A stretch of DNA of 32,629 nt, from the NCBI GenBank assembly GCA_034660735.1, contig JAYEJQ010000071.1:1-32629 (forward strand), in the 5' to 3' direction. Below the pieces are notes generated by a model. It saw nothing but the letters and a program-made list of their open reading frames with translations. It was not told where the DNA came from and searched no databases. Below are positions 108 to 5,060 of this stretch, piece by piece; within the stretch, counting starts at the first letter, position 1; each line of letters begins with the position of its first letter. The DNA is from Patescibacteria group bacterium (GTDB lineage Bacteria > Patescibacteriota > Patescibacteriia > JAACEG01). The position numbers were made by a program, and so were the translations under genes.

Positions 108-197
108 GGAGAGGTGCTAGAGTGGTTGAATAGGACGCTCTCGAAAAGCGTTGCGCCCGCAAGGGCGCCGAGGGTTCGAATCCCTCCCTCTCCGCCA
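108..197 (+). tRNA. tRNA-Ser (anticodon CGA), long variable arm, CCA encoded
   Basis: Acceptor GGAGAGG (108-114) pairs with CCTCTCC (187-193); discriminator G194; CCA 195-197. Anticodon stem ACGCT/AGCGT with loop CTCGAAA. Long GC-rich variable arm. T arm GAGGG-TTCGAAT-CCCTC. Confidence 0.9.
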
Positions 198-409
198 ATT
201 TACAATTTCAGAGTTTTGGAGGATTTTTGTTTTTTCTTGTGCCTGCGGCGCGGTCGCGCTCCGCGCTAAAAGGGCTGAATTTGCAACGATTTGCCACGCG
301 GAGCGTGGCAAATCGTTGCAAATTCAGCCCTTTTAACTTCGCCCGCAGGCAAGGCTATCGCACTGCAGGTGCGTAAAACTTCCGAAAACTCTGAAATTGT
401 AAATTGGCG
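193..409. repeat. about 217-bp nested palindromic element (MITE-like or long hairpin) abutting tRNA-Ser
   Basis: The perfect 25-nt arm CGCCAATTTACAATTTCAGAGTTTT (193-217) recurs as its reverse complement at 385-409. An inner perfect 31-bp hairpin pairs 268-298 with 304-334. Partly complementary GC-rich shoulders include GCCTGCGG 241-248 versus CCGCAGGC 343-350. Confidence 0.8.
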
Positions 410-543: not shown

Positions 544-590
544 TTGCTAACTATAGTATGTAGAACTAAAATTAGCAAGTGTGTATACTA
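544..590 (+). promoter_or_regulatory. candidate promoter and operator (C-box-like) of the C-protein/endonuclease operon
   Basis: TTGCTA (544-549), 17 nt, TAAAAT (567-572). Inverted repeat TTGCTAA (544-550) / TTAGCAA (572-578). Palindromes ACTATAGT (550-557) and GTATAC (583-588). TATAGTAT (552-559) and TATACT (584-589) match the two half-sites of the palindrome at 3422-3436. Confidence 0.35.
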
Positions 591-623
591 AAATTAACTT
601 TCAAAAATACTAAAAAGATTCTA

Positions 624-830
624 ATGAAAAAAGAAATTTTATTAAAATTTGGGGAAAAAGTCAAAGAAGAGAGATTAAAACAAGGAATTTCTCAAGAGGA
701 ATTGGCTTCTAAGGCGGGAGTACACAGAACTTATATTGGAATGATAGAAAGAGCAGAAAAAAATATTACCCTAGGAAATATTGAAAAAATGGCAAAAGCC
801 TTAAAAATACCAACTAAGGAACTTTTTTAA
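624..830 (+). CDS. XRE-family helix-turn-helix protein, likely controller (C) protein of the adjacent R-M module
   Basis: MKKEILLKFGEKVKEERLKQGISQEELASKAGVHRTYIGMIERAEKNITLGNIEKMAKAL is a classic Cro/C1-type HTH of the size and pattern of R-M C proteins. Its stop lies 9 nt before the next ORF. The ATG at 624 is preferred over the GTG at 579 used by the ORF track. Confidence 0.7.
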   Translation: MKKEILLKFGEKVKEERLKQGISQEELASKAGVHRTYIGMIERAEKNITLGNIEKMAKALKIPTKELF

Positions 831-839
831 TTTTGTATT

Positions 840-1844
840 ATGCAACCGAATAAAAAATTTATCACAATTAAAGATACCGAAAATAAAGTTAAAGCTCTTT
901 TGAACGAGCTTGTTTTACAGCCAAGGATAAATGCAATTAAATGGTCTCAAATAACAAAACAAACACCAAATATTAAAATCGGATACCCAGGACAACACCT
1001 TGCATCTTTAATTACAGGAATGGAAGGCGAAAGGACGGGAGCAAGAGGAAATGATTTAATAGACGGATCAGAGGTAAAATCATGTTCAAGAATAGATCAG
1101 CTTGATTTGTGCAAAGACTGTAAAACTCCAGTGGCAAGGCTTGAAAATGAATGTTCAAATTGTGGCTCAAATAATATTGATCGAAAAAAAGATTCAAAAT
1201 GGCTCTTTTCTGTTAGAACTAAAGACGAATTGAATGTTTTATTACATGAGGTAAAAAGAGTATTTTTAATCATTGGCGATTATCCAAATTTCGAAAATAA
1301 TGATTTTGAAACTTTAAGATTCCAAGCGTTTGAAATTTGGCCAGAAAATCCAAAAAATAAAAAATTTTCTGAAATAATGACCAATTACTATAATAAAATA
1401 TATTTGGCTCACAAAAAGAAAAATCCAAACAAAACTCCAGCTCCAAAAAACTTTTGGCCATACCAATATCAATTTTATATTTGTAATCCAATTCTTGTTT
1501 TTTCCTGTATAGTAGTGAAATCAAATTCTAATCCAAAAATAAATATTGAATATTATTTAAAACCTGTTGCTGACCGTTCAAAGAAAAAATCTATTTTAAT
1601 GCCAGCGAATATATTAAATGAAAAAGAAATTGATTTACTTTTTAGAAAAGCGCCAAAAGAAGAGATTTTGAAAATGATTAAAAAAGAGCATAAAATTAAA
1701 AAAATAAAGAAACTCTCTTTAAAGGAAAAACAAGAAATGTTTATTGGTATTGATGAAAATTTAAGAAATTATTTGCCTCTCAGAGATACTGATAAAATTT
1801 CCATTGCTAAAAGCAAATATTCAAGAAGAAAAAATTCAAAATAG
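840..1844 (+). CDS. putative type II restriction endonuclease (PD-(D/E)xK-like core with a CxxC...CxxC zinc-ribbon insert)
   Basis: The call rests on position, directly after a C protein and convergent with a methyltransferase. GARGNDLIDGSEVKS fits a D...ExK nuclease motif (D72, E78, K80). CKDC...CSNC (C91, C94, C105, C108) follows. I recognise no specific family with certainty. Confidence 0.45.
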   Translation: MQPNKKFITIKDTENKVKALLNELVLQPRINAIKWSQITKQTPNIKIGYPGQHLASLITGMEGERTGARGNDLIDGSEVKSCSRIDQLDLCKDCKTPVARLENECSNCGSNNIDRKKDSKWLFSVRTKDELNVLLHEVKRVFLIIGDYPNFENNDFETLRFQAFEIWPENPKNKKFSEIMTNYYNKIYLAHKKKNPNKTPAPKNFWPYQYQFYICNPILVFSCIVVKSNSNPKINIEYYLKPVADRSKKKSILMPANILNEKEIDLLFRKAPKEEILKMIKKEHKIKKIKKLSLKEKQEMFIGIDENLRNYLPLRDTDKISIAKSKYSRRKNSK

Positions 1845-3392
1845 TTTAGGAGTTCTTTTTAAGTTTTTTATTCTTTCTTTCGCTATTTTTGTGTATTTTT
1901 TATCAATATCAATACCGATATAATTTCTTTTAAGTTCAGCACAAGCTAAGGCGGTCGAACCTGCACCAACAAAAGGATCCAAAACAGTCATTCCTTCATT
2001 GCTACTTGCTTTTACTATTCTTTCAATAAGACGCACTGGTTTTTGTGTTGGGTGATATCGTTTTTCTTTGTAAAAATCAATATCATTCCAGACATCAGTA
2101 AATCCCATTTGGGCGTTAAAGATAAAATTTACTTCTGAATACGGTTTTTTAAATTTTAATATTTTTTCAAGCTTTTCCCATTGTTCTTTTGTTGGAATTT
2201 GAGCCAATATATTTTTACCAGTATACAAAGACCACAAACCGCCTCCGTTACTTTTAACTTCCATCGCTTCATTTATTTCTTTTGCGGTTAAGTCAGTTTC
2301 TTTTTGTCTATCAAGAAGAAACTTTTTTATTTCTGGTTGGTTATTGTAAGCAAAAAATAGAATACTTTCTGTCACATTGGGAAACATCTTATAGTTTTTT
2401 GTTGCTCTTCCGCTAACAGATCTCATTCCTTTGTTGATTATTATTTGCTGTCTTAAGGAAAAACCTTCTTTCTCAATTTCGGGGAGTAAATATGCTAAAG
2501 TTTTAAAGTACCCGAATAAATAAAAAGAACCTGTTTTTTTTGTAATTCGTACAAGCTCTTTGAGCCATTGTTTGCACCAAATAATATAATCGTTCTCGGT
2601 TCGCCATTTATAATCCCATTTTTCATTTATTACTTTCCAGTATGGAGGATCAGCAACAATCAAATCAATTGAATGATCTGGAATTTTTTTTAATTCTTCA
2701 ACTACATCTCCGCAAATAATTTTATTTAATGGTAATTTAGAATATTTTTTTACTTGCTTTTCTTCCTTTTTTTTTATGATTTCTGTATCTAAAATTTTAT
2801 TTTTTATCACATCAACAACAAGACCTTGAATGATAATTTCTTGCTCGTCTTTTTTTATAATGATTGGTTCATATTCTTTATTAGCTGGTTGCAGGCGTAT
2901 TTGATTTTTTTCTTTGTAGAATGTTTTTAATGTTGCCTCGTAATTATCAATCAAGGCAACTACTTTCTGTCCATTTTCAGCGACCTGCTGTTCTTTTACC
3001 AAAATAATATCACCATCATTGATATTTTCATCAATCATGCTTTTTCCTGCCACTCGCAAAGCGTAAAAATTTCCGCTTCTCATTATTTTTGTTTTTGGTA
3101 TAGCAATTGTTTCTTTTTCTTGAATAGCTTCAATTGGTTGTCCCGCAGCAATTGTTCCCATTAAAGGAATTTTTACCATTTGCTGGCTTTCATAAACGGA
3201 TATTGATCTTGGGCTGTTTTCTTCCTTATTCAAAAATCCTTCTTCTTGCAGTTTCTTTATATGAAAATGGGCGGTTGAAACAGAGGCAACTTTGAGTTTT
3301 TTGCGTATCTCTTCCAAAGAGGGGGCATACCCTTTTTTCTTGTGATATGAGGATATAAAGTCTAAAACTTGTTTTTGTTTTTTTGTTAGCAT
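1836..3392 (-). CDS. fusion protein: full-length LexA (winged HTH plus S24 autopeptidase) joined to a beta-class N6A/N4C DNA methyltransferase
   Basis: Residues 1-205 align end to end with LexA: MLTKKQKQVLDFI..., cleavage motif IAAG (A83-G84, nt 3141-3146), GKSM (S118, nt 3039-3041), TLK (K156, nt 2925-2927), GLVVDVIKN. Residues 225-518 carry DPPY (248-251, nt 2640-2651) upstream of HPTQKP and LDPFVGAGSTALA. That motif IV-before-motif I order is typical of the N6_N4_Mtase family. The ORF is one uninterrupted frame. Confidence 0.85.
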   Translation of the reverse strand: MLTKKQKQVLDFISSYHKKKGYAPSLEEIRKKLKVASVSTAHFHIKKLQEEGFLNKEENSPRSISVYESQQMVKIPLMGTIAAGQPIEAIQEKETIAIPKTKIMRSGNFYALRVAGKSMIDENINDGDIILVKEQQVAENGQKVVALIDNYEATLKTFYKEKNQIRLQPANKEYEPIIIKKDEQEIIIQGLVVDVIKNKILDTEIIKKKEEKQVKKYSKLPLNKIICGDVVEELKKIPDHSIDLIVADPPYWKVINEKWDYKWRTENDYIIWCKQWLKELVRITKKTGSFYLFGYFKTLAYLLPEIEKEGFSLRQQIIINKGMRSVSGRATKNYKMFPNVTESILFFAYNNQPEIKKFLLDRQKETDLTAKEINEAMEVKSNGGGLWSLYTGKNILAQIPTKEQWEKLEKILKFKKPYSEVNFIFNAQMGFTDVWNDIDFYKEKRYHPTQKPVRLIERIVKASSNEGMTVLDPFVGAGSTALACAELKRNYIGIDIDKKYTKIAKERIKNLKRTPKLF

Positions 3393-3398
3393 AAATAT

Positions 3399-3459
3399 TT
3401 GACTTTATTTTTTATTAAATCTATACTTATAGTATAATAGAAAGAAAATAGAAAGTCAA
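3399..3459. promoter_or_regulatory. mirror-symmetric pair of overlapping face-to-face promoters with a central 15-bp palindrome (candidate operator)
   Basis: Plus strand: TTGACT (3399-3404), 17 nt, TATACT (3422-3427). Minus strand: TTGACT (complement of 3454-3459), 17 nt, TATACT (complement of 3431-3436). The two -10 hexamers together form TATACT-TAT-AGTATA (3422-3436), centred at 3429. Confidence 0.6.
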
Positions 3460-3505: not shown

Positions 3506-3742
3506 ATGCAAAAACGAACAGCAACAAAATCACAAGTTAAAAAAGAGCGGGGCTTAAAAAAGGTTACAAAGGTTATTAAGCAAAAAGGTCATCCGTCAGG
3601 CAAACTGCCCAAAGGTAAAATTTTACACCATGTTAATTCAGTTGCCACTGGCGGAAAAACAACAAAGAAAAACACTCGTATCGTTACAAAGTCAAGGCAT
3701 AAACAAATACACAAAAACCGCAACAAACGAGGAAAAATTTAA
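3506..3742 (+). CDS. small, very basic protein with a minimal HNH-like motif
   Basis: This 78-aa protein has a Lys/Arg-rich N-terminus. LHHVNSVATGGKTTKKNTRIVTKSRHKQIH fits the HH...GG...N...H..IH beta-beta-alpha-Me (HNH) pattern. It is the first gene of a tight three-gene cluster. Confidence 0.4.
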   Translation: MQKRTATKSQVKKERGLKKVTKVIKQKGHPSGKLPKGKILHHVNSVATGGKTTKKNTRIVTKSRHKQIHKNRNKRGKI

Positions 3743-3761: not shown

Positions 3762-4163
3762 ATGGAAAACAAGCGTAAACATCTCGAATTTATTCAGGCA
3801 ATCATCAGTCGAATGGCTGGCAATTTGTTTTTCTTGAAAGGATGGACTATCACATTAATTGTGGCACTTTTCGCATTTTTTGTAAAAGACGCGAATACCG
3901 ATTTTATTTTTGTCATTTATTTCCCAGTCATTATTTTTTGGATATTGGATGGGTATTTTCTTTCACAAGAACGATTATTCAGGGCGTTATATAATCATGT
4001 GCGAAAACTAGATGAAAAGGAAATTAACTTTTCAATGAATACAAATAAATATAATGAGGACAAAAGGAATGGTTGGCTACACTCAATGTTTTCGAGTACG
4101 CTTCTATTTTTTTATTTGCCACTTGTCGGCGTTATGTTATTAGTTACATATTTAATAAATTAA
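3762..4163 (+). CDS. small integral membrane protein (about 3 TM helices), function unknown; candidate effector partner of the TIR protein
   Basis: Hydrophobic spans are LFFLKGWTITLIVALFAFFV, FIFVIYFPVIIFWILDGYFL and a C-terminal TLLFFYLPLVGVMLLVTYLI. The gene starts 19 nt after the previous ORF and ends 10 nt before the next. Confidence 0.6.
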   Translation: MENKRKHLEFIQAIISRMAGNLFFLKGWTITLIVALFAFFVKDANTDFIFVIYFPVIIFWILDGYFLSQERLFRALYNHVRKLDEKEINFSMNTNKYNEDKRNGWLHSMFSSTLLFFYLPLVGVMLLVTYLIN

Positions 4164-4173
4164 ATTCAAAGTT

Positions 4174-4611
4174 ATGAGAAAAGTATTTTTTAGCTTCAAA
4201 TACAAGGATGTATCAAGAACAATGATTGTTAGGAATAGTTGGGTTGCTCAAGGAAAAGATGCGGCGGGTTTTATTGACTCCGCCGATTTTGAGGACTTGA
4301 AACGACAAGGTGACACAGCAATTAAAAACTGGATAGATAAACAACTCAATGGAACATCAGTTACTGTCGTCTTAGTAGGCGAAAAAACTTGTGATAGCAG
4401 GTGGGTAAAATATGAGATTGAAAAAAGCATTGAAATTGGGAATGGCTTATTAGGAATTGATGTAAGTAAGATAGAGGATTTGCAGGGTAATACTTCTGAA
4501 AGATGTGGCAAAATTCCAAAAGGTTACAATTTTTACCTTTGGAACAACGATGACGGATATCACAAAATGGGCGATTGGATTGAGAAAGCGGCGAAAGATG
4601 CTGGAAGATAA
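4174..4611 (+). CDS. ThsB-like TIR domain protein (DUF1863 / TIR-like family)
   Basis: KVFFSFKYKDV...VRNSWV...AAGFIDSADFEDLKR...TSVTVVLVGEKTCDSRWVKYEIEKSIEIGNGLLGI matches the ThsB/TIR-like signature as I know it. The match includes the RWV.YEI.KS segment with the conserved Glu (E81, nt 4414-4416). Confidence 0.8.
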   Translation: MRKVFFSFKYKDVSRTMIVRNSWVAQGKDAAGFIDSADFEDLKRQGDTAIKNWIDKQLNGTSVTVVLVGEKTCDSRWVKYEIEKSIEIGNGLLGIDVSKIEDLQGNTSERCGKIPKGYNFYLWNNDDGYHKMGDWIEKAAKDAGR

Positions 4612-4856: not shown

Positions 4857-4930
4857 GTACCCGTAGCTCAATTGGATAGAGTGTCTGGCTTCGGACCAGA
4901 AGGTTGCAGGTTCGAGTCCTGCCGGGTACA
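4857..4930 (+). tRNA. tRNA-Arg (anticodon TCG)
   Basis: Acceptor GTACCCG/CGGGTAC. D arm GCTC..GAGT. Anticodon stem TCTGG/CCAGA with loop CTTCGGA. T arm GCAGG-TTCGAGT-CCTGC. Discriminator A. Confidence 0.85.
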
Positions 4931-4942
4931 CCTATAAGATAT

Positions 4943-5015
4943 CCGCCTGTAGCTCAATCGGCAGAGCAGGGGCCTCTTAAGCCCAAGGTTCTGGGTTCGA
5001 TTCCCAGTGGGCGGA
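4943..5015 (+). tRNA. tRNA-Lys (anticodon CTT)
   Basis: TA-GCTC...GAGC D arm. Anticodon loop CTCTTAA. T arm CTGGG-TTCGATT-CCCAG. The acceptor CCGCCTG/TGGGCGG has two G-U pairs, so the ends are uncertain by 1-2 nt. Confidence 0.75.
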
Positions 5016-5060
5016 CAAATTTGGAGTTGCCATAAATATTGTATTTATCAGCCGCTATTC

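What the first reader, a model, noticed from the sequence alone, without database searches (positions are those of the whole stretch)
544..3392. R-M-like module whose methyltransferase is fused to a complete LexA repressor/autopeptidase
A C-protein gene (624-830) and a putative endonuclease gene (840-1844) converge on a 518-aa ORF, overlapping its end by 9 nt. The first 205 residues of that ORF are a full LexA. This is not just an HTH: the AAG cleavage site (A83-G84), the Ser nucleophile (GKSM, S118) and the general-base Lys (TLK, K156) are all present at E. coli-like spacing. Residues 225-518 are a beta-class DPPY/FxGxG DNA methyltransferase. Some type II methyltransferases carry short N-terminal HTH autoregulatory domains (SsoII/EcoRII-like). 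A whole RecA-responsive S24 LexA module fused to the enzyme is not something I know to be described. It suggests DNA-damage-coupled control of methylation. One scenario is that self-restriction or phage-induced damage triggers autocleavage. That would sever the DNA-binding domain from the methyltransferase and derepress the module. Alternatively, this fusion could be the organism's SOS repressor, physically tethering methylation to LexA boxes.
Basis: partly seen in the sequence, partly recalled or inferred. Interest (0 to 1): 0.85.

Follow-up and report, generated by a model that had tools for sequence, protein, structure and literature searches.

The report
LexA repressor fused to restriction-modification methyltransferase
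A restriction-modification defence system in an ultra-small (Patescibacteria) bacterium has its protective DNA methyltransferase fused to a complete LexA DNA-damage sensor, and this apparently undescribed arrangement recurs across many such genomes with many different restriction enzymes, which suggests DNA damage turns up protective methylation.

Summary
Window 544-3459 holds a type II R-M cassette: C-box, C gene (624-830), MamI-family endonuclease (840-1844) and a convergent 518-aa gene (1836-3392, 9-nt overlap). That gene encodes a full LexA (TIGR00498 equivalog, above cutoff) joined by a flexible linker to a beta-class N6_N4 methyltransferase.

It is not an assembly artefact. About 71 of the 80 closest LexA loci in species-representative genomes are the same kind of fusion. 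The Ala-Gly cleavage site, Ser and Lys are invariant in 81/81 fusions.

The LexA half is decoupled from the R-M half. Near-identical LexA modules sit on methyltransferases paired with TaqI, HindIII, MamI, BglII, His-Me, HNH and other endonucleases. LexA is also fused to Dam-like, gamma-class and C5 methyltransferases.

It is an adjacent 11-bp-period direct repeat (3437-3454) inside the promoter spacer, shared with free-standing Patescibacteria lexA genes.

Best reading (inferred): a self-repressed methyltransferase gene that is derepressed by LexA self-cleavage after DNA damage. It is unresolved whether this is also the cell's only SOS repressor. No description was found in the searchable literature.

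The parts
544..578 (+). C-box: operator of the controller protein, TTGCTAACTATAGTATGTAGAACTAAAATTAGCAA (outer arms TTGCTAA / TTAGCAA)
   Evidence: Sequence read. The core TGCTAAC..TTAGCAA is conserved in all five MamI-type loci (window, L001, L006, L014, L016) while flanking DNA differs. A HindIII-type locus has a different sequence at this position.
584..589 (+). Candidate -10 hexamer (TATACT) of the C/R operon promoter
   Evidence: Conserved next to the C-box in all five MamI-type loci. Its function is inferred.
624..830 (+). C (controller) protein gene, 68 aa
   Evidence: Pfam HTH_3 1.6e-17. PADLOC Control_protein 8.7e-22. A gene of about 73 aa occupies the same position in most related loci.
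840..1844 (+). Type II restriction endonuclease gene, MamI family, 334 aa
   Evidence: Pfam RE_MamI 1.4e-37, covering the whole model. PADLOC REase_II 2.9e-39.
1836..1844 (.). 9-nt tail-to-tail overlap of the endonuclease and methyltransferase genes
   Evidence: A convergent 4-9 nt overlap recurs in most related loci.
1836..3392 (-). LexA-methyltransferase fusion gene, 518 aa
   Evidence: It is the only LexA-like ORF in the window.
1839..2732 (-). Beta-class N6_N4 DNA methyltransferase domain (aa 221-518; DPPY from D248, FxGxG from F474)
   Evidence: Pfam N6_N4_Mtase 4.5e-45. PADLOC MTase_II 4.2e-52. PDB relatives are M.RsrI, MboIIA and CcrM. AF2 pLDDT is mostly about 90.
2733..2798 (-). Lys/Glu-rich flexible linker between the S24 domain and the methyltransferase (aa 199-220)
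   Evidence: Least conserved stretch of the protein (0.46). AF2 pLDDT is below 50 at aa 199-212. In L005 this linker carries a single in-frame TAA.
2814..3167 (-). Peptidase S24 autoprotease / dimerisation domain (aa 76-193; S118 at 3039-3041, K156 at 2925-2927)
   Evidence: Pfam Peptidase_S24 8.9e-31. S118 and K156 are invariant in 81/81 fusions, and this is the most conserved part of the protein.
3141..3146 (-). Ala83-Gly84 self-cleavage site
   Evidence: Codons GCG GGA. Invariant in 81/81. Aligns with the cleavage-site region of solved LexA.
3198..3392 (-). LexA winged-helix DNA-binding domain (aa 1-65)
   Evidence: Pfam LexA_DNA_bind 1.2e-14. AF2 predicts three helices with pLDDT about 85.
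3431..3459 (-). Promoter of the fusion gene: TTGACT (3459-3454), 17-nt spacer, TATACT (3436-3431)
   Evidence: Joint best promoter-like site in the region, 10/12. The same layout occurs in L003, L005 and L012.
3437..3454 (.). LexA box: direct repeat with 11-bp period, ATAGAAAGAAAATAGAAA, filling the promoter spacer
   Evidence: The only match in the window. One match in each of 9 loci, always just upstream of the fusion gene. 86 hits in 751 kb against 0.3 in shuffles, 84 of them upstream of lexA or lexA-MTase. Also present upstream of free-standing lexA genes.
3399..3427 (+). Overlapping opposite-strand promoter (TTGACT, 17 nt, TATACT) pointing at the small ORF 3506-3742.
   Evidence: 10/12. 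Its function is inferred. The LexA box would lie at about +3 to +20 of this promoter.

Best explanation
This is a type II restriction-modification cassette with two separate control arms.

Arm 1 is conventional. A controller (C) protein binds its own C-box (544-578) and times expression of the co-transcribed MamI-family endonuclease.

Arm 2 is the unusual one. The protective beta-class methyltransferase is made as a single polypeptide with a complete LexA at its N-terminus: DNA-binding domain, Ala-Gly cleavage site, S24 Ser-Lys autoprotease / dimerisation domain, then a flexible linker.

Shown here:
- The domain identities.
- Invariance of the cleavage machinery.
- Recurrence of the fusion across Patescibacteria with many unrelated R-M enzyme pairs.
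- A strongly conserved direct-repeat box inside the fusion gene's own promoter, identical to the box of free-standing Patescibacteria lexA genes.

Inferred:
- The fusion dimerises through its S24 domain and sits on the box, holding transcription of its own gene low.
- RecA-ssDNA filaments form after DNA damage. This includes double-strand breaks made by the partner endonuclease at sites left unmethylated after repair, recombination or entry into a new host.
- The filaments trigger self-cleavage at A83-G84. The DNA-binding domain falls off and the promoter is derepressed.
- More methyltransferase is made. The S24-methyltransferase fragment is expected to stay active.

The net effect is damage-inducible modification. 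Functionally this would be a type II counterpart of SOS-linked restriction alleviation.
For: Domain identities.

The cleavage machinery is under selection. A83, G84, S118 and K156 are invariant in 81/81 fusions that diverge down to about 47% identity, and the S24 core is the most conserved segment.

The fusion is a selected architecture, not an accident:
- About 71 of the 80 best LexA loci in GTDB species representatives are fused.
- There are about 40 clusters at 50% identity with an N-terminal LexA and at least 430 aa.
- LexA is fused independently to four methyltransferase fold classes: N6_N4, D12, gamma N6/Eco57I/TaqI_C and C5.
- The partners fall into 15 clusters, including TaqI, His-Me/EndoVII, HNH, MamI, HindIII, MutH-like, BglII and a PADLOC REase_II.
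- MTase identity tracks endonuclease type (79% within a type, 31% between). LexA identity hardly does (77% against 72%). LexA halves 98% identical sit on MTases only 39% identical.

Operator:
- 86 hits in 751 kb against 0.3 expected, with 84 directly upstream of lexA or lexA-MTase. They lie inside the -35/-10 spacer or just downstream of the -10.
- The same box and layout occur at free-standing lexA genes, for example L012 among uvrA/B/C.
- Direct-repeat LexA boxes with 11-bp period are known elsewhere: GTTC-N7-GTTC in Alphaproteobacteria (PMC8565304).

Modular build: the AF2 model has three confident modules and low-confidence hinges at aa 57-70 and 199-212.

Precedent for a methyltransferase that represses its own promoter through an N-terminal DNA-binding region: M.SsoII (PMC3978073 and PMC6100179 abstracts).
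Against: - No biochemical or expression data exist. Binding to the box, RecA-stimulated cleavage and activity of the cleaved fragment are all inferred.
- More methyltransferase during phage-induced damage could also protect phage DNA, so the selective benefit is not self-evident.
- There is no MamI-type site (GATNNNNATC) near the promoter. The window has 6 such sites against 8.2 expected, so nothing ties methylation state to the operator.
- I could not show that RecA, or any other gene in these genomes, is under the same box.
- Some loci lack a C gene, or have the partner on the same strand, so details differ between cassettes.
Confidence: 0.55

Rival explanations
1. The fusion is the cell's one and only SOS repressor. 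R-M cassettes have been grafted onto the resident lexA, so the methyltransferase is a passenger. It may also act as an addiction device: losing the cassette would damage lexA. The main biological role of the LexA half would then be ordinary SOS control. This is not exclusive with the best explanation.
For: - The LexA half passes the LexA equivalog model.
- It is 64-86% identical to free-standing Patescibacteria LexA proteins.
- It uses the same box and promoter layout as free-standing lexA genes, including one among uvrA/B/C.
- No assembly among the best 80 loci shows a fused copy plus a free-standing copy.
- None of the long fusion-bearing contigs (685, 749, 344, 298 and 219 kb) appears as the source of a free-standing LexA among the top 120 LexA-domain hits.
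- There is no second LexA in the window.
Against: - Two MAGs each hold two different complete fusions whose LexA halves are only 66% identical (L067/L076, L054/L083). A third pair is L022/L040 at 74%, with L022 cut by the contig end.
- Near-identical LexA modules (up to 98%) occur in assemblies labelled as different candidate phyla and on different cassettes. That looks like a mobile platform rather than vertical descent.
- Flanks are not syntenic and often carry other defence genes.
- In 751 kb of flanks the box occurs almost only at lexA itself.
- Whole genomes could not be read, so a more diverged second lexA cannot be excluded.
Confidence: 0.35
2. The LexA half serves only as a dimerising DNA-binding autoregulator, like the N-terminal HTH of M.SsoII. 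Self-cleavage plays no physiological role.
For: Autoregulation by an N-terminal DNA-binding region is established for SsoII-type methyltransferases (abstracts). The box sits in the promoter. The S24 domain is also LexA's dimerisation domain (established knowledge).
Against: The Ala-Gly site, Ser and Lys are invariant in 81/81 fusions, and the cleavage-site loop is among the best conserved stretches. The whole LexA, never the DNA-binding domain alone, is what recurs on four unrelated methyltransferase folds.
Confidence: 0.12
3. The LexA DNA-binding domain tethers the methyltransferase to LexA boxes so that it methylates nearby sites. This would be epigenetic marking of SOS promoters.
For: Physical linkage of a sequence-specific DNA-binding domain and a methyltransferase.
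Against: The nearest GATNNNNATC to the box is at 3199-3208, inside the gene, and there are only 6 such sites in 32.6 kb. The same LexA module is attached to methyltransferases of many different specificities, so no constant site-box relationship is possible. The box is essentially confined to lexA promoters in the DNA examined.
Confidence: 0.04
4. The long ORF is an assembly chimera or a sequencing frameshift joining separate lexA and methyltransferase genes.
For: One relative (L005) has an in-frame TAA in the linker. Public gene calls list some methyltransferases without the LexA part (P0060, P0062).
Against: Dozens of independent assemblies from four sources carry the uninterrupted ORF. The 'unfused' P0060 and P0062 loci are open in-frame fusions whose gene start was called too far downstream.
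Confidence: 0.01

Closest known systems
Canonical LexA (SOS repressor; TIGR00498, MEROPS S24)
   Same: Full-length homology over aa 2-198. It has the winged-helix DNA-binding domain, Ala-Gly cleavage site, Ser-Lys dyad, dimerisation domain and an autoregulatory box in its own promoter. The box is the one used by free-standing Patescibacteria lexA genes.
   Different: It carries a roughly 300-aa DNA methyltransferase on its C-terminus and sits in an R-M cassette. Control of a wider SOS regulon was not demonstrated here.
SsoII/EcoRII/Ecl18kI-type methyltransferases with an N-terminal autoregulatory HTH
   Same: The methyltransferase itself carries an N-terminal DNA-binding region that is expected to repress its own promoter. 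It is joined to the catalytic domain by a flexible linker (PMC3978073 abstract; AF2 hinge).
   Different: In SsoII the regulatory region is about 71 aa with no protease, on a C5 methyltransferase. Here it is a 200-aa LexA with an intact self-cleavage apparatus, which adds a potential DNA-damage input. A separate C protein is also present.
C-protein-controlled type II R-M systems (PvuII, Esp1396I, Kpn2I and others)
   Same: C gene upstream of and co-oriented with the endonuclease gene, a palindromic C-box in front of the C gene, and a convergent methyltransferase gene.
   Different: In those systems the methyltransferase is free-standing and is regulated by its own promoter or by the C protein, not by a fused LexA.
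Damage-linked control of defence: restriction alleviation of type I R-M (ClpXP degradation of HsdR), and the CapH/CapP and CapW/BrxR regulators of CBASS/BREX (recalled from memory, not read here)
   Same: All couple DNA damage signals to the activity or expression of an immune system. This fits the proposed logic of protecting the chromosome when unmodified sites arise.
   Different: Different proteins and mechanisms. Here the proposed output is more methyltransferase, through a LexA domain that is part of the enzyme itself.

Membership tests
LexA repressor family (TIGR00498 / Peptidase S24) | N-terminal LexA-type winged-helix DNA-binding domain | tested here: met
   PF01726 1.2e-14, aa 2-62. 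TIGR00498 179.9 bits against a cutoff of 110.95. Aligns with 3k2z and 1jhh from residue 2.
LexA repressor family (TIGR00498 / Peptidase S24) | S24 domain with Ser nucleophile and Lys general base | tested here: met
   PF00717 8.9e-31. S118 and K156 are invariant in 81/81 homologues.
LexA repressor family (TIGR00498 / Peptidase S24) | Ala-Gly scissile bond in the hinge | tested here: met
   A83-G84 are invariant in 81/81. Codons lie at 3141-3146.
LexA repressor family (TIGR00498 / Peptidase S24) | Operator in its own promoter (autoregulation) | tested here: met
   The direct-repeat box at 3437-3454 lies within the -35/-10 spacer. 84 of 86 hits in 751 kb lie upstream of lexA or lexA-MTase. Binding itself was not tested.
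LexA repressor family (TIGR00498 / Peptidase S24) | RecA*-stimulated self-cleavage | not testable with these tools
   Needs protein biochemistry.
LexA repressor family (TIGR00498 / Peptidase S24) | Represses a multi-gene SOS regulon (recA, repair and translesion genes) | tested here: inconclusive
   Only one convincing extra box was seen (L010 6462) in 751 kb of flanks. The metagenome box scan was dominated by chance hits. No recA lies in the fetched flanks.
Type II restriction-modification system with controller protein | DNA methyltransferase with catalytic (D/N/S)PP(Y/F) and AdoMet-binding FxGxG motifs | tested here: met
   DPPY from D248 and FVGAGS from F474, in beta-class order. PF01555 4.5e-45. 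PADLOC MTase_II 4.2e-52.
Type II restriction-modification system with controller protein | Adjacent restriction endonuclease gene | tested here: met
   RE_MamI 1.4e-37 over the whole model. REase_II 2.9e-39. The pairing is conserved in L001, L006, L007, L014, L016, L293 and L294.
Type II restriction-modification system with controller protein | C protein with a conserved C-box upstream of its gene | tested here: met
   Control_protein 8.7e-22. The C-box is conserved in five MamI-type loci and differs in a HindIII-type locus.
Type II restriction-modification system with controller protein | Cognate cleavage and methylation of one recognition sequence | not testable with these tools
   The specificity (GATNNNNATC for MamI itself) is only inferred from family membership.
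SsoII-type self-regulating methyltransferases | Short (about 70 aa) N-terminal HTH region, without a protease, fused to a C5 methyltransferase | tested here: not met
   Here the N-terminal region is a 200-aa LexA with an S24 domain, and the enzyme is an N6_N4 beta-class methyltransferase. The resemblance is in logic, not in family membership.

The most novel reading that the evidence does not exclude
In a large part of the Patescibacteria, LexA has become a portable 'damage-sensing head' for restriction-modification methyltransferases of any fold and specificity. In many of these reduced genomes the fusion would be the only LexA. The SOS repressor and the modification enzyme would then be one protein, with R-M cassettes swapped onto this platform by recombination. 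DNA damage, including self-restriction, would directly raise protective methylation. This would be a previously unrecognised restriction-alleviation mechanism for type II systems and a rewiring of the SOS response around genome defence.
Probability: 0.35. Interest if true: 0.9.

Novelty: new variant of a known kind. Interest (0 to 1): 0.8.

Why it matters
How type II R-M systems avoid killing their own host when unmethylated sites arise is a long-standing question. Such sites appear after repair, recombination or arrival in a new cell. C proteins and SsoII-type self-repression address timing, but no damage-responsive safeguard is known for type II systems.

A methyltransferase that carries the cell's canonical DNA-damage sensor gives a directly testable candidate: cleavage assay, EMSA on a defined 18-bp box, and reporter induction.

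It also changes how 'LexA' annotations in candidate-phyla-radiation genomes should be read. Most of the closest relatives found here are R-M enzymes. It also shows a conserved regulatory module being reused across four methyltransferase folds and at least ten endonuclease families.

Tried and rejected
1. The palindrome 3422-3436 as the operator. It is explained by two overlapping -10 hexamers. The conserved element is the adjacent direct repeat.

2. 'Unfused' close relatives of the methyltransferase (P0060, P0062) as evidence for recent or sporadic fusion. Both loci are open in-frame fusions with mis-called starts.

3. P0121 as the closest free-standing LexA. It is a fusion interrupted by one in-frame TAA in the linker.

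4. A metagenome-wide scan for the box to define the regulon. Only 12 of 120 stretches were next to lexA.

5. Looking for recA in 0.75 Mb of fetched flanks. None was found.

6. Phage carriage. Only 2 full fusions were found in 2.9 million viral contigs.

7. Reading the Patescibacteria SOS paper (Sanchez-Osuna, Barbe & Erill 2017, Environ Microbiol). It is not held. From memory it reports a direct-repeat LexA motif in this group, which would match the box found here, but I could not check that.

8. A link between TCGA-containing box variants and TaqI-type cassettes. TaqI-type loci all have the TAGAAA variant, but so do the other cassettes in the same LexA clade. The pattern cannot be separated from common descent.

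9. Whether fusion-bearing genomes hold a second lexA. The tools do not give access to whole genomes. Only indirect evidence was obtained.

Full report
**What is in the window**

- a 68-aa gene at 624-830 (+);
- a 334-aa gene at 840-1844 (+);
- a convergent 518-aa gene at 1836-3392 (-), overlapping the previous one by 9 nt.

Profile searches identify all three:
- The small protein is an HTH_3 protein that matches PADLOC 'Control_protein' models (8.7e-22).
- The 334-aa protein covers the whole Pfam RE_MamI model (1.4e-37; PADLOC REase_II 2.9e-39).
- The 518-aa protein has LexA_DNA_bind (aa 2-62), Peptidase_S24 (aa 76-193) and N6_N4_Mtase (aa 242-506).
- Its first 198 residues pass the NCBIfam LexA equivalog model TIGR00498 (179.9 bits, cutoff 110.95).

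Solved LexA structures align end to end with aa 2-198, and beta-class methyltransferases (M.RsrI, MboIIA, CcrM) align with aa 227-511. DPPY (D248) precedes FxGxG (F474), which is the beta-class order. An AlphaFold2 model built on 63 homologues shows three confident modules (aa 1-55, 72-196, 220-518) with low-confidence hinges at aa 57-70 and 199-212. There is no other LexA-like ORF in the 32.6-kb window.

**The fusion is real and common**

A search with the whole protein returned more than 50 full-length clusters at 47-86% identity that carry all three domains. They come from NCBI, JGI, ENA and Logan assemblies, on contigs up to 685 kb. The few that are named are called 'transcriptional repressor LexA' or 'hypothetical protein' from Patescibacteria.

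A scan of one genome per species with a LexA-domain alignment found 395 relatives. Among the best 80:
- about 71 are fusions of 435-1129 aa;
- 2 are clearly free-standing;
- the rest are cut by contig ends.

An exhaustive search of 50%-identity representatives shows about 40 distinct clusters with an N-terminal LexA and at least 430 aa among the best 150 hits.

Apparent exceptions dissolve on inspection:
- The closest 'free-standing' LexA (P0121, L005) is a fusion with one in-frame TAA in the linker.
- Two annotated 'unfused' methyltransferases about 80% identical to this one (P0060, P0062) are open in-frame fusions whose starts were called too far downstream.

Only 2 of 2.9 million viral contigs carry a full fusion, so this is a feature of cellular genomes.

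**The cleavage machinery is conserved**

In an alignment of 81 full-length fusions, A83, G84, S118 and K156 are invariant. The S24 core is the most conserved part of the protein. The linker at aa 201-220 is the least conserved.

**The LexA half and the R-M half have separate histories**

Relative to the window protein, some homologues have LexA halves 75-91% identical but methyltransferase halves only 30-40% identical. Others have about 80% identical methyltransferase halves but more diverged LexA halves.

Across 68 loci:
- Methyltransferase identity follows the type of partner endonuclease: 79% within a type, 31% between types.
- LexA identity barely does: 77% against 72%.
- LexA halves up to 98% identical sit on methyltransferases only 39% identical.

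The gene that converges on the fusion, usually overlapping it by 4-9 nt and usually followed by a C-like gene of about 73 aa, falls into 15 clusters:

| Partner cluster | Loci |
|---|---|
| TaqI family | 18 |
| Unrecognised, about 335 aa | 17 |
| His-Me finger / EndoVII-like | 12 |
| HNH | 4 |
| MamI | 3 |
| HindIII | 2 |
| MutH/Sau3AI-like | 2 |
| PADLOC REase_II | 2 |
| BglII | 1 |
| Other unrecognised clusters | remainder |

LexA is also fused to Dam-like D12, gamma-class N6_Mtase/Eco57I/TaqI_C and C5 cytosine methyltransferases, and in one case to two methyltransferase domains in series (L026). One C5 fusion has been in GenBank since the 2012 aquifer data set as a hypothetical protein. The same whole-LexA module has therefore been joined repeatedly to unrelated methyltransferase folds. 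That is hard to explain without selection for the combination.

**The regulatory DNA**

Upstream of the fusion gene, the two best promoter-like sites in the region overlap on opposite strands:
- TTGACT-17-TATACT at 3459-3431 (-), driving the fusion gene;
- TTGACT-17-TATACT at 3399-3427 (+), pointing at a small ORF at 3506-3742.

The element that is actually conserved lies next to it: ATAGAAAGAAAATAGAAA at 3437-3454. It is a direct repeat with an 11-bp period and fills the spacer of the fusion-gene promoter.
- It is the only match in the window.
- It occurs once in each of nine related loci, always just upstream of the fusion gene.
- In 751 kb of window plus loci it gives 86 hits against 0.3 in shuffles. 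Of these, 84 are directly upstream of a lexA or lexA-methyltransferase start.

Three layouts occur: inverted within the -35/-10 spacer (as here), forward just downstream of the -10, and inverted at about -27.

Truly free-standing Patescibacteria lexA genes carry the same box in the same layouts, including one flanked by uvrB, uvrA and uvrC. Direct-repeat LexA boxes with the same 11-bp period are known in Alphaproteobacteria (PMC8565304). From memory, the 2017 Patescibacteria SOS study reported a direct-repeat motif, but that paper could not be read here.

On the other side of the cassette, a 35-bp palindromic C-box (544-578) followed by TATACT is conserved in all five MamI-type loci while the flanks differ. 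A HindIII-type locus has a different sequence in that position. So the C/endonuclease arm is cassette-specific, and the LexA box is common to all cassettes.

**How it most likely works**

Shown: the parts, their conservation, the recurrence of the fusion, and the position of the box.

Inferred:
1. The fusion dimerises through its S24 domain, binds the box and represses its own promoter. It probably represses the overlapping opposite promoter as well.
2. RecA filaments formed after DNA damage trigger self-cleavage at A83-G84.
3. The DNA-binding domain is lost and the promoter opens.
4. More methyltransferase is produced.

The damage may include breaks made by the partner endonuclease at sites left unmethylated by repair, recombination or entry into a new host. 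Damage would therefore raise protection. This is the same logic as restriction alleviation in type I systems, reached by a different route.

I put this whole scenario at about 0.55. Within it, autorepression through the box is the most secure step and the physiological benefit the least.

**The main open question**

It is unresolved whether the fusion is also the cell's only SOS repressor.

For that view:
- it has equivalog-level similarity to LexA;
- it uses the same box as free-standing lexA genes;
- no assembly among the best 80 has a fused copy plus a free-standing copy;
- no free-standing LexA from the same long contigs appears among the top 120 LexA-domain hits.

Against it:
- two MAGs hold two different complete fusions with LexA halves only 66% identical, and a third MAG holds a fused pair at 74% in which one copy is cut by the contig end;
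- near-identical LexA modules occur on different cassettes in differently labelled lineages;
- the flanks are non-syntenic and rich in defence genes;
- the box is virtually confined to lexA promoters in the DNA examined.

Attempts to find regulon members failed. Whole genomes could not be read with these tools.

**Comparison with what is known, and novelty**

- The C/endonuclease arm is a standard C-controlled type II system.
- The LexA half meets every sequence-level criterion of LexA.
- The logic of a methyltransferase that represses its own gene is known from SsoII-type enzymes, whose 71-aa regulatory region has no protease.

What is new is a complete self-cleaving LexA as the regulatory head of R-M methyltransferases, and its scale: dozens of species-level genomes, four methyltransferase folds and at least ten endonuclease families. 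Five full-text searches and two recent R-M reviews gave no description of it. The library does not hold most subscription journals, so an earlier mention cannot be excluded.

I rate it a new variant of a known kind, with interest 0.8.

Noticed in passing
window 3762-4611: Two genes next to the R-M cassette match the candidate defence pair PDC-M50. The 133-aa membrane protein is PDC-M50A (2.6e-52). The 145-aa TIR-like protein is ThsB / PDC-M50B (7.9e-55; Pfam ThsB_TIR 1.7e-22). Together with the R-M cassette they form a small defence island between tRNA-Ser (108-197) and tRNA-Arg/tRNA-Lys (4857-5016).
   Followed up: partly
window 3506-3742: A 78-aa, very basic ORF has an HNH-like motif (HH...N...H...IH) and a weak hit to the colicin/pyocin DNase domain (0.002). 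It is transcribed divergently from a promoter that overlaps the fusion-gene promoter and the LexA box, so it may be co-repressed. Related loci have other small genes in this position; one shows a weak GIY-YIG hit.
   Followed up: partly
window 193-409: Nested perfect inverted repeats start at the 3' end of tRNA-Ser: arms 193-217 / 385-409 (25 nt) and 267-299 / 303-335 (33 nt, 3-nt loop). The stretch is relatively GC-rich and has no Rfam match. Its origin is unexplained (structured element, integration scar or foldback artefact).
   Followed up: partly
L011 5001-6412; L046 5001-6384: Free-standing Patescibacteria lexA genes with a C-terminal 'KKLxWMK' tail are followed within 6-14 nt, on the same strand, by a nuclease gene. 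In L011 it is a DpnI-family methyl-directed endonuclease (1.5e-77). In L046 it is a 244-aa protein with a weak REase_II hit. LexA in this lineage seems tied to restriction even when it is not fused.
   Followed up: partly
L005 6001-7287: A close relative (LexA part 86% identical) has a single in-frame TAA in the linker between LexA and the methyltransferase. The methyltransferase frame continues without an obvious start codon. This could be a natural split, a pseudogene or a sequencing error.
   Followed up: partly
L293 3346-4909; L294 3386-4948: Public gene calls for two RIFCSP genomes (Magasanikbacteria, Levybacteria) list only the methyltransferase part (302 and 315 aa), although the ORF is open from a complete LexA N-terminus. 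Counts of such fusions taken from annotations are therefore underestimates.
   Followed up: yes
P0283, P0294, P0301, P0324, P0328, P0338, P0345, P0366; L026 5001-8390: LexA is also fused to D12 (Dam-like), gamma-class N6_Mtase/Eco57I/TaqI_C and C5 cytosine methyltransferases. In L026 it is fused to a beta-class plus a gamma-class methyltransferase in one 1129-aa protein.
   Followed up: partly
L010 6462-6478: This is the only convincing extra LexA box away from a lexA promoter in 751 kb. It is an exact copy of that genome's lexA box, lying between a 63-aa gene (minus strand, followed by a 156-aa gene with no Pfam match) and smpB. It is a possible second regulon member.
   Followed up: no
L006 6279-7590: In a related locus the LexA-methyltransferase cassette lies next to a Pycsar-like pair (nucleotide cyclase plus PycTM effector). 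This is another sign that these cassettes sit in defence islands.
   Followed up: no
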